Both the position numbers and the translations under genes were made by a program. From Isurus oxyrinchus (taxonomy: Eukaryota): a stretch of 64,000 nucleotides of DNA. This document shows positions 30,401 through 33,400 of this stretch, in pieces. The notes below the pieces were generated by a model. The model searched no databases. It saw only the letters and a program-made list of their open reading frames with translations, and was not told where the DNA came from. Position 1 is the stretch's first letter. Every line of letters begins with the position of its first letter. The stretch is from the NCBI GenBank assembly GCA_026770705.1, contig JANJGN010000012.1, forward strand, positions 136,028,001 through 136,092,000. Reading direction: 5' to 3'.

Positions 30401-33400
30401 AAGAGTTGTTATCTGGGCAACTGACATATCTATAGCTAAGGGTTAAAGTCACTCACATCACACTGCTTTGGAAGGACAAGCTTTCTCAGTGGGCTAATGG
30501 AAGGATAATAAGCAGAAAGACCACAAATACATAAGGAAATGATGCTTAATGTCTGTACTGCTTTTGTTTTGAGGTTTAATGGAGCAAACTTCGCAAAAGA
30601 TCTTATGGGTTCACATTGAATGGTTTGGACTTTAAGGATAGACTGGAGACGGTGGTTGATAGTGCTACCATGGTTACTTCAATTCTCCTCAGCAGTTCAA
30701 CTTTAAAATACATGCCACAAAGCATATCACAAATAATTAACGTATGGTATAAACTAGTGCAGCACAGGCACGGTGGTTTGAATGTCCTCCTTTTGTATTA
30801 AATCATTATGTGAAGGAGATGTATAAAGAAACCAAAATCTAACTAATAAAGCTATAAGAGAGACATCTCTTCCATGACCAACAATTATGAAAAGTAGCCA
30901 CTTATATGATTACGACTTAACACTGAGTTCAACAATTTCAGACCATGAACTCTGTCTCCCATTTTGTTTTTATTTTTGCACTGTGCCTGTTTGAATCTTG
31001 TTTCTCATTTTATTGTTTTTGGACAGAGCTGTTCATTGTTCTGGCACTTACACTCATTCTGGACAAATGCTTTGTCTCTGCAACAACCAGTACCACTCCC
31101 TTTGTTTTTTTGTTCCTTGACATCTTTGTCATTTAATCTCTCCCACCCTCTACTCTATACCAAACCTTCTTTTTTGTTCTTCATCCCCTTCTCCCTTTCA
31201 ACAGCATAAAACCCATCACATTTCCGCCCTCGACTTTAGATGTTAATGCGGTTTCTCTCTCCACAGACTGATTATTTCCAGCACTTTTTTGTTTTTAGTA
31301 CATGATTATGTGGCCTCAAATTAGTGAAGGGAATGAGGATTGTTGAGACTGGTTAGACCAAATGTGCACTAATCATGCAAAATTAAATATCATTAATAGA
31401 AATGATAGATCTGGCTGTCCTAGGGCTCAGAAGTAAAGTAGTTTGCCTCTGCACCATATAGCTGAGCACGGACCCAGATTCAATTGGTTTCAGACCCATT
31501 GGTTTGCACAAAGTGTTTGACAAGGCCCGAGTGAATACAGAGTGCGTGCAGGGAACGGTGTTGAACGCAGGTGACGTGCGCCCGGCCGGCTGCTTCCTTC
31601 CGTGCGAGCGCCAACAGGTTGCTTCCGTTTTTTATTTACACCGGTTACTCCAGTTCTGCTGAAGGGTCATGAGGACCCGAAACGTCAACTCTTTTCTTCT
31701 CCGCCGAAGCTGCCAGACCTGCTGAGTTTTTCCAGGTAATTCTGTTTTTGTTTTGCCCCAGATTCAATCCTGGAACTATGTTGAGTTATCAAGTATCAAC
31801 TGGGCTGAGGTAAAAATACTGGTTGAGGCCACAGTGCTTAGGGCAGGGCTTCCCAAACTGTGGGTGATGACCACCAGTGGGGTCGTAATGAGAGATTTTG
31901 GGGCCATGAACTCCAAGGCAACAAGGGTTGCCACAGAGTCTGGGCTGATTTTTCACAGCTGTGAGGTCCCTTTAAATCCTGTCTTTTTTCTACTGGTGGG
32001 TGTGGCCTAATGGGCTACTCAGAGGTCTGAATGCTGCTGCAAATAAAGCCTGTGAAAAGTTAGGTGTTAATTTGTTTTTTGTTGAAACTCTGCCTTTTCA
32101 TCAATTCCCTGAACAATCATTTCCTGTTCCCCGAAAACCTCCCACACTAGGCTCAGCAAATGAAGCTTCTCCTCGGCCCGTGCTCAACAACTGAAGCCTC
32201 TCCCAGACTGCCCCCCCCCCCCCACCACCCCTCAATAGCTCTTGTACCCCTCAAATTTTCACCCTAGGGTCACACGAAGTCTGAGACTTTAAAATGGGGT
32301 CACAATGGGAAAATGTTTGGGAAGCACTGGCCTAGGGTTTAAGAAAGGGATAATCAGTGTATACATTCTTATTCACTGTCCAGCGATCTTCCTTGGGGGA
32401 GAGGGTTGAATTGTACTTGACTGAAAGTTTTCTCAAATTGTAAGCCTCACAGCTGAGAGGGAAAAGTTCTGAAAAAGAAATTTATCTTTTTAATCTTAGA
32501 AAAATGTACTTTCCATTGTAGGTTCTACAATGGAAATGCTCCCTAAAAGCAAAGGAAATTGTGCCAGAAGCATTTACACTGCAGAAGGCATGAACAAATT
32601 ATTTTCATCATTGCTACTGCATTTTATGTTTAATTAGCAGCTAGTAAAGAAAACAGATGGATTGAGTGGATTGAAAAAGTAGTTCCCCAAGAATAGCCAC
32701 TTACTGATGGACATTCCAGGTCCACATATTATCCAACTTACCCTGGAGGCAATGGCTGTGGTCTTTCCCACGTTGTTCGTTTTTCAATGTGATCTACAAA
32801 ATACAATCTGCCGTGTTGATCCACCCTCTGCTCCCAGCTGTGGAAAGAAAATGAGGAACGTTTGAGGACTCTGGGTCTATACTCGATGGAGTTTAGAAGG
32901 ATGAGGGGAGATCTGATTGAAACTTACAGAATACTGAAAGGCCTGGATAGAATGCACGTGGGGAAGATGTTTCCATTAGTAGGAGAGACTAGGACCCGAG
33001 GGCACAGCCTCAGAGTAAAGGGAAGACCTTTTAGAACAGAGATGAGGAGAAACTTCTTTAGCCAGAGAGTGGTGAATCTATGGAATTCATTGCCACAGAA
33101 GGCTGTGGAGGCCAGGTCATTGAGTATATTTAAGACCGAGATAGATAGTTTCTTGACTGGTAAGGGGATCAAAGGTTACGGGGAGAAGGCAGGAGAATGG
33201 GGTTGAGAAACTTATCAGCCATGATTGAATGGTGCAGCAGACTCAATGGGCCAAATGGCCTAATTTCTGCTCCTATGGTCTAATATTGTCAGAGGCCATA
33301 GCTTTTGTAGCATCTAGTGTCTTCAGCAATTTCTTGATATCACGTGGAGTGAATCAAATTGGCTGAAGACTGGCACCGTGATGCTGGGGACCTTCAGAGG

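What the first reader, a model, noticed from the sequence alone, without database searches (positions are those of the whole stretch)
31473..31768. TSD-flanked 272-bp mini-retroelement carrying a hammerhead ribozyme and a CpG-rich extra segment
Seen: a perfect 12-bp TSD (cccagattcaat) brackets 31485-31756. The 3' ~105 nt contain AGTT-CTGCTGA-A-GGGTC(ATGAG)GACCC-GAAA-CG-TC-AACT: stems I and II are perfect, the cleavage triplet is GUC, and the core is an A6-to-C variant. A Penelope-type tail follows. The 5' ~165 nt match nothing else I could find in the window, keep many CpGs in a CpG-depleted background, and include GTGACGTG and two CTTCCG motifs. Known: Penelope-like elements carry minimal type I hammerheads, and retrozymes are non-autonomous hammerhead retroelements. 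Inference: this is a young retrozyme-like or SINE-like element mobilised by Penelope machinery, or a transduction of promoter-like sequence from a donor locus.
Basis: partly seen in the sequence, partly recalled or inferred. Interest (0 to 1): 0.8.

Follow-up and report, generated by a model that had tools for sequence, protein, structure and literature searches.

The report
Penelope end carrying captured rDNA spacer
This is a single insertion in which the short, hammerhead-shaped end of a very common jumping gene is joined to a 160-base piece of the ribosomal RNA gene spacer, likely picked up by accident during copying; it is not a new ribozyme element family, though a second such capture exists in the same genome.

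Summary
The insertion is real: a perfect 12-bp TSD (likely 14 bp with one change) brackets 272 nt. The 3' 106 nt are the standard end of a Neptune-type Penelope-like element (PLE); its hammerhead motif matches 124,861 times in the genome. The 'orphan' 5' segment is 45S rDNA: 80-81% like the stretch 828-679 nt upstream of 18S, and closer in indel pattern to a decayed older rDNA unit. Its CpGs and CTTCCG motifs come from rDNA; GTGACGTG arose by CpG decay. The chimera is single-copy, has one minimal hammerhead with an altered core and an unfavoured stem I, has no tandem partner, and is shared with a second organism. So it is not a retrozyme or SINE family. Best reading: a one-off capture of pre-rRNA 5' spacer during PLE copying, like LINE-1/rRNA chimeras. 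A second, independent, antisense rDNA-spacer capture by the same family turned up among 79 sampled copies. Whether the piece is transcribed spacer or Pol I promoter is unresolved. The scan had already noted this family's fixed start, altered core and local captures on other DNA of this genome; my look-ups found no note of rDNA capture.

The parts
31473..31484 (+). Left target-site duplication (12 bp perfect; 31471-31484 if read as 14 bp with one mismatch)
31485..31643 (+). Captured 45S rDNA fragment, same sense as pre-rRNA; homologous to the stretch 828-679 nt upstream of 18S (partial second copy 1053-963 nt upstream); 5' ETS or Pol I promoter region
   Evidence: 80-81% by BLAST; colinear with decayed unit L061 to 31643
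31644..31648 (+). 5-nt junction linker, unassigned (donor continuation or untemplated)
   Evidence: matches neither L061 nor the native PLE upstream sequence
31649..31690 (+). Minimal type-I hammerhead motif of the PLE end (stem I 4 bp, core CTGCTGA, stem II 5 bp, no helix III loop, GTC at 31684-31686); begins at the family's preferred 5' edge
31691..31755 (+). PLE terminal sequence ending at the commoner of the family's two 3' end points (about +104)
   Evidence: 2 of 105 mismatches to the nearest copies over 31651-31755
31757..31768 (+). Right target-site duplication (31755-31768 as 14 bp)

Best explanation
This is a single chimeric insertion joining the hammerhead-bearing end of a high-copy Penelope-like element to a 159-nt piece of 45S rDNA spacer, likely made when the PLE reverse transcriptase ran off its own RNA and jumped onto a pre-rRNA fragment. 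Shown: TSD, PLE identity of the 3' part, rDNA identity and sense orientation of the 5' part, the junction at the family's preferred 5' edge, single copy, presence in a second organism. Inferred: the PLE endonuclease cut the target; RT started at the +104 site and copied about 105 nt to the 5' edge of the hammerhead; it switched to an rDNA-derived RNA, copied about 160 nt more, and the ends were joined. The donor was likely an older, unduplicated rDNA type now lost from the arrays. The copy is likely inert: a lone minimal hammerhead with an altered core would not be expected to cleave.
For: 5' part: all 30 fetched loci but the self-hit are rDNA-type, 8 of 8 scanned carry 18S downstream; full unit 18S-5.8S-28S confirmed. 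A 35-nt probe has 643 matches, about the rDNA copy number given by other probes (626-644). The element keeps the indel pattern of decayed unit L061, which has one copy of the segment. 3' part: long copies carry an RT-like plus GIY-YIG ORF (Pfam GIY-YIG E 0.0046, below the curated cutoff) with a CX4CX2C linker. 50 of 79 sampled contexts begin within -21..+14 of the hammerhead edge; 71 of 79 end in two clusters near +104 and +138, as expected from two internal RT starts (PMC11167929). Other things are joined at the same edge: antisense rDNA ETS in L095, a local copy in L047, a sense copy of the element's own tail in L297. Sense joins are read as template switch or ligation and antisense joins as twin priming for LINE-1 (PMC13174262). 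RNA-guess contigs of two studies cover the donor segment and stop upstream of it while DNA goes on (weak hint).
Against: No exact donor is in the assembly: best identity is 81-83% while the PLE part is 98% like its relatives, so a lost donor must be assumed. RNA as the template is not shown: run kinds are guesses, the two start points disagree (7302 and about 7150-7225), and a third RNA-guess run spans the whole region. If abundant rRNA were the usual template, 28S captures would be expected, yet 0 of 7 dispersed 28S pieces at one probe touch a PLE end. A dispersed ETS-region piece without any PLE exists (L215), so repair-type capture also happens here. No microhomology is visible at the junction.
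Confidence: 0.55

Rival explanations
1. DNA-templated capture: during a PLE insertion the broken end or nascent cDNA invaded rDNA (chromosomal or extrachromosomal) and copied 160 nt; the piece may be a Pol I promoter duplicate rather than transcribed spacer.
For: The same family copies nearby DNA at this edge (L047). L215 is a PLE-free dispersed piece of the same region. The segment is duplicated in present rDNA, the pattern of spacer promoters (recalled). L095 is antisense, which DNA capture allows. No PLE-28S chimera among 7 pieces.
Against: The one IGS probe had no dispersed hit on the large contigs outside rDNA-type arrays, whereas 28S had 7 and the three ETS-region probes had 1, 2 and 0, which leans to RNA templates. 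RNA-guess contigs cover the segment.
Confidence: 0.2
2. 5' transduction from a source copy: a PLE end once sat inside an rDNA unit, Pol I co-transcribed it with upstream spacer, and the fused RNA was retrotransposed in trans with 5' truncation.
For: Sense orientation and a donor type missing from today's arrays both fit; concerted evolution would erase the source. PLE ends can mobilise linked host sequence in trans (PMC3846280, passages).
Against: No PLE end in 178 fetched rDNA loci (partial, overlapping stretches). Only one offspring found. It does not explain the antisense capture L095.
Confidence: 0.15
3. A real non-autonomous retrozyme/SINE family with an rDNA-derived head, of which this assembly shows one copy.
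For: TSD, size near animal retrozyme monomers (150-450 bp, PMC7229834), hammerhead present; animal retrozymes are argued to derive from PLE ends (bioRxiv 10.64898/2026.07.22.740005).
Against: Single copy; no tandem; minimal motif with altered core; single minimal hammerheads showed no cleavage in vitro (PMC4209133); poor self-pairing.
Confidence: 0.05

Closest known systems
LINE-1 chimeric insertions with rRNA and other RNAs (PMC13174262, passages read)
   Same: Foreign RNA piece at the 5' side of a truncated retroelement end inside one TSD; sense and antisense forms; one-off events.
   Different: The driver is a PLE, not LINE-1; the captured piece is rDNA spacer, not mature 5S or 28S rRNA; no poly(A); the junction sits at a fixed hammerhead edge.
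EN+ Penelope-like elements, Neptune/Nematis type: truncated pLTR insertions (PMC8557442, PMC11167929, PMC4209133; passages or sections read)
   Same: RT + GIY-YIG ORF with CX2-5CxxC linker in long copies, minimal hammerhead in the end repeat, optional 30-40 nt tail, 5' truncation, inverted partners, TSD.
   Different: Here rDNA takes the place of the inverted partner; the core has C (others in the sample mostly T) where the canonical core has A.
Host-DNA capture by Adineta vaga Penelope elements (PMC3846280, passages read)
   Same: PLE ends joined to unrelated host sequence, with TSD.
   Different: There the host DNA lies between pLTRs and is 0.9-1.5 kb or a whole gene; here a short rDNA piece lies 5' of a single end.
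Animal non-LTR retrozymes (PMC7229834 passages; bioRxiv 10.64898/2026.07.22.740005 part 1 of 5)
   Same: Size, type-I hammerhead motif, link to PLEs.
   Different: No tandem units, one hammerhead, single copy, weak folding, no sign of a circular RNA.

Membership tests
Non-LTR retrozyme | Tandem repeats with at least two consecutive hammerhead-bearing units | tested here: not met
   One PLE end within 29001-34500; no repeat of the unit in the window
Non-LTR retrozyme | Multi-copy family of the whole unit | tested here: not met
Non-LTR retrozyme | Canonical, cleavage-competent type-I hammerhead | tested here: inconclusive
   Minimal motif, non-canonical position 6, stem I unfavoured, no Rfam hit; cleavage itself not assayed
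Non-LTR retrozyme | Abundant, highly self-paired circular RNA | not testable with these tools
   Only contigs available; folding z +2.09 argues against strong self-pairing
SINE | Many dispersed copies with a shared head | tested here: not met
   One dispersed PLE-joined copy of this head
SINE | Head derived from tRNA, 5S, 7SL or snRNA with an internal promoter | tested here: not met
   No Rfam hit there; head is 45S rDNA spacer
EN+ PLE (Neptune/Nematis type) truncated insertion | End sequence shared with elements encoding RT + C-terminal GIY-YIG | tested here: met
   GIY-YIG weak Pfam hit; the RT label is read by eye from the translation
EN+ PLE (Neptune/Nematis type) truncated insertion | CX2-5CxxC linker between RT and EN | tested here: met
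   CPRKRCNTC at aa 240 of the L058 frame; definition in PMC8557442. No tree was built, so Neptune and Nematis are not separated
EN+ PLE (Neptune/Nematis type) truncated insertion | Hammerhead motif in the end repeat, optional tail, TSD | tested here: met
Chimeric retro-insertion by template switch | Two unrelated parts, same sense, one TSD | tested here: met
Chimeric retro-insertion by template switch | Foreign part copied from RNA | tested here: inconclusive
   One search is a weak hint only; searches are mixed

The most novel reading that the evidence does not exclude
This PLE family recurrently picks up pre-rRNA 5' spacer at the fixed 5' edge of its hammerhead, in sense by template jump (this locus) and in antisense by second-end priming (L095). 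That would mean its reverse transcriptase meets short-lived nucleolar RNA, and that such chimeras are a route to rDNA-headed, possibly Pol I-driven, non-autonomous elements. They would also be fossils of extinct rDNA spacer types.
Probability: 0.25. Interest if true: 0.55.

Novelty: new variant of a known kind. Interest (0 to 1): 0.3.

Why it matters
How PLEs finish the 5' side of an insertion is still open (PMC11167929 says later steps remain to be validated). Chimeras that join foreign sequence at one fixed edge, in both orientations, are natural footprints of that step and suggest an in vitro test. The copy also preserves an older, unduplicated form of a fast-evolving rDNA spacer. As a single dead insertion it has no likely function.

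Tried and rejected
Rfam scan of the window: no hammerhead hit. Run search: no RNA holder listed for the locus; the RNA-guess run X15 had no cover over 31287-31614; neither is evidence on expression. Empty site: no joint skipping the element among the 15 joints listed (109 not shown); 1 of 2 runs of organism B showed the filled site, the other had no cover of the left flank bins. Transcription start of rDNA: contigs cannot show it; conservation between old and present units is high at L064 7072-7311, upstream of the segment, but not decisive; literature searches listed no paper on it for this group (one search gave no motif sequence). Special structure in the 5' segment: none (z +1.7; donors +0.4 to +0.6). 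Unusual CpG protection: rejected, 5 of 14 donor CpGs decayed against 19 of 118 in family tails. Candidate second junction at C23 (L297) and three other loci: no rDNA. L095 as a family: no second junction among 40 scored of 1082 candidates. The contrast 2 of 3 ETS pieces PLE-joined against 0 of 7 28S pieces was not treated as a statistic, because both ETS cases were found through the PLE.

Full report
Observation. CCCAGATTCAAT lies at 31473-31484 and 31757-31768 around 272 nt. Only 10 of 64,000 positions in the window have an exact 12-mer repeated 100-500 nt downstream. The repeat extends to 14 bp with one mismatch. The hammerhead letters are present, but stem I is 4 bp and has pairing probability 0.10-0.13 in the isolated motif and 0.0 in the whole element, against 0.94-0.97 for stem II. 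Rfam reports no hammerhead in the window, and the element folds less well than 198 of 200 shuffles.

The 3' part is an ordinary PLE end. A 33-nt probe of the motif has 124,861 matches with at most one mismatch. Of 29 other copies fetched with the junction query, 12 continue upstream in shared native sequence and 17 start at or near the hammerhead edge (this sample is biased by the query). Long copies carry an open frame that reads as RT followed by GIY-YIG (the RT label is by eye; Pfam GIY-YIG E 0.0046, under the curated cutoff) with a CX4CX2C linker, the mark of Neptune/Nematis elements (PMC8557442, passages). For a less biased sample I took the first 100 listed matches; 79 contexts remained after dropping those identical over 80 nt or with too little flank. 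Of these, 50 begin within -21..+14 nt of the hammerhead edge and 29 are longer; 34 edge copies have an inverted partner (both halves of one insertion are often counted); 71 end in two clusters near +104 and +138. Two end points match the two internal RT start sites and the 'tail' described for an anole PLE (PMC11167929, parts 1-2 of 4 read). The window copy ends at the first cluster and differs from its nearest relatives at 2 of 105 positions. The core is non-canonical across the family: CTGTCGA 85, CTGTTGA 14, CTGCTGA 2 of 116. That position 6 matters for catalysis is recalled, not tested. A single minimal hammerhead showed no cleavage in vitro (PMC4209133, passages).

The 5' part is rDNA. 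Searching the genome with 31485-31650 returned 1297 candidates, 40 scored, spaced about 16.8-17.6 kb in arrays. All 8 loci scanned have 18S downstream, and one unit shows 18S, 5.8S and 28S. The match lies 828-679 nt upstream of 18S, in the sense of the pre-rRNA, with a partial second copy 1053-963 nt upstream. Identity is 80-81% by BLAST. A decayed rDNA unit (L061, 18S 4.7% diverged) has a single copy of the segment and shares the element's indel pattern to 31643, so the element likely preserves an older, unduplicated spacer type. The CpG richness and both CTTCCG motifs are inherited from rDNA, and GTGACGTG corresponds to GCGACGCG in the donor; 5 of 14 donor CpGs have decayed.

It is one event, not a family. 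Two element-specific probes found only this locus, or this locus and L061. A 35-nt probe found 643 matches, of which the 100 listed are this locus and rDNA units. A 16-nt core probe found, on the large contigs, rDNA units, this locus and one PLE-free 149-nt rDNA piece, L215. The junction query found no second spanning match among 40 scored of 448 (the one partial candidate had no rDNA). There is no other PLE end within 2.5 kb. A DNA-guess run of organism B holds a contig across 31195-31676 with 5 differences and one across 31729-32200 with 9 (1 of 2 organism-B runs laid), so the insertion predates that split. The rDNA region differs between A and B by 86 letters and 40 gap positions over 1634 nt, about three times faster, which helps explain why the 5' part looks older than the 3' part.

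A second capture. L095 (C1) has a 14-bp TSD around about 70 nt of 5' ETS, 98.7% like present rDNA, in antisense, joined at the same hammerhead edge with short overlaps at both joints. It is single-copy and was the only rDNA capture among the 79 contexts. Other joins at this edge are a 188-nt local copy (L047, 81% like a stretch about 300 nt away) and a sense copy of the element's own tail with a short linker (L297). Captures of rDNA are rare overall. Dispersed hits on large contigs were 1, 2 and 0 for three ETS-region probes, 7 for a 28S probe and 0 for an IGS probe, and none of the 7 28S pieces touches a PLE end. Finding L095 early was probably luck.

Promoter or transcribed spacer? Unresolved. 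RNA-guess contigs of organism A from two studies cover both copies of the segment and stop at L064 7302 and about 7150-7225, where DNA goes on; a third RNA-guess run spans everything. Old and present units are well conserved at 7072-7311, just upstream. I put about 60% on transcribed 5' ETS and 40% on a duplicated Pol I promoter; the duplication pattern of spacer promoters is recalled.

Mechanism. Shown: TSD, two parts, sense join at the family's preferred edge, single copy. Inferred: endonuclease cut, RT start at the +104 site, run-off at the hammerhead edge, jump to an rDNA-derived RNA, closure (0.55). Rivals: DNA-templated capture (0.2), transduction from a PLE end once resident in rDNA (0.15; none seen in 178 partial rDNA loci), a true retrozyme or SINE family (0.05).

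Comparison. It works like LINE-1 chimeras with rRNA, where sense joins are read as template switch or ligation and antisense joins as twin priming (PMC13174262, passages). PLE capture of host DNA is known in a rotifer (PMC3846280, passages). It fails the retrozyme tests of tandem units and copy number (PMC7229834, passages; bioRxiv 10.64898/2026.07.22.740005, part 1 of 5; its supplements were not seen). Searches listed no paper describing PLE chimeras with rDNA spacer; the library omits most subscription papers, and I read no supplements. That the genome is shark-like comes from earlier scan notes and recall, not from a call of mine.

Verdict. A real, well-explained, one-off chimera: a new variant of a known kind, interest 0.3. 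The recurrence of rDNA-spacer capture in both orientations is the only lead worth a census.

Noticed in passing
L095 = G000:C1:1317160-1320192 (motif at 1318660-1318692, minus): Independent PLE insertion with 14-bp TSD carrying about 70 nt of antisense 5' ETS, 98.7% like present rDNA, joined at the hammerhead edge.
   Followed up: yes
window 62704-62766 +: Rfam CPEB3 (HDV-like) ribozyme hit, E 1.3e-6, above the gathering score; lies just upstream of what looks like a retroelement coding stretch (by eye).
   Followed up: no
L061 = G000:C20:62842500-62845500: Decayed rDNA unit of an older type: one copy of the segment that is duplicated in present units, plus about 115-130 extra nt behind it.
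   Followed up: partly
L215 = G000:C18:10399992-10403007, 1394-1541: Dispersed 149-nt rDNA spacer piece (96.6%) with no PLE beside it.
   Followed up: partly
L252 (C2) and L255 (C10): Dispersed 28S pieces that both start at the same 28S position and follow similar non-rDNA sequence; this looks like R2 element ends with read-through (site identity recalled).
   Followed up: no
G000:C18:1184785-1454704 and C928:84447-233188: Long tandem arrays of a ~5.3-kb unit containing an IGS probe but no 28S probe match: spacer-only amplification beside rDNA.
   Followed up: no
L047 1315-1502: PLE end with TSD and a 188-nt 5' segment 81% like a stretch about 300 nt downstream.
   Followed up: partly
L297 = G000:C23:15169600-15171100, 707-855: PLE end preceded in the same sense by its own 31-nt tail and a short linker, inside a TSD-like repeat.
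   Followed up: partly
window 12051-12147, 20497-20598, 45711-45813, 4373-4436, 50248-50325: Older copies of related PLE ends (74-90% identity).
   Followed up: no
window 31650-31656: The preferred 5' edge CCAGTTC fits a Pol II initiator pattern (recalled), which may mark the PLE transcript start.
   Followed up: no
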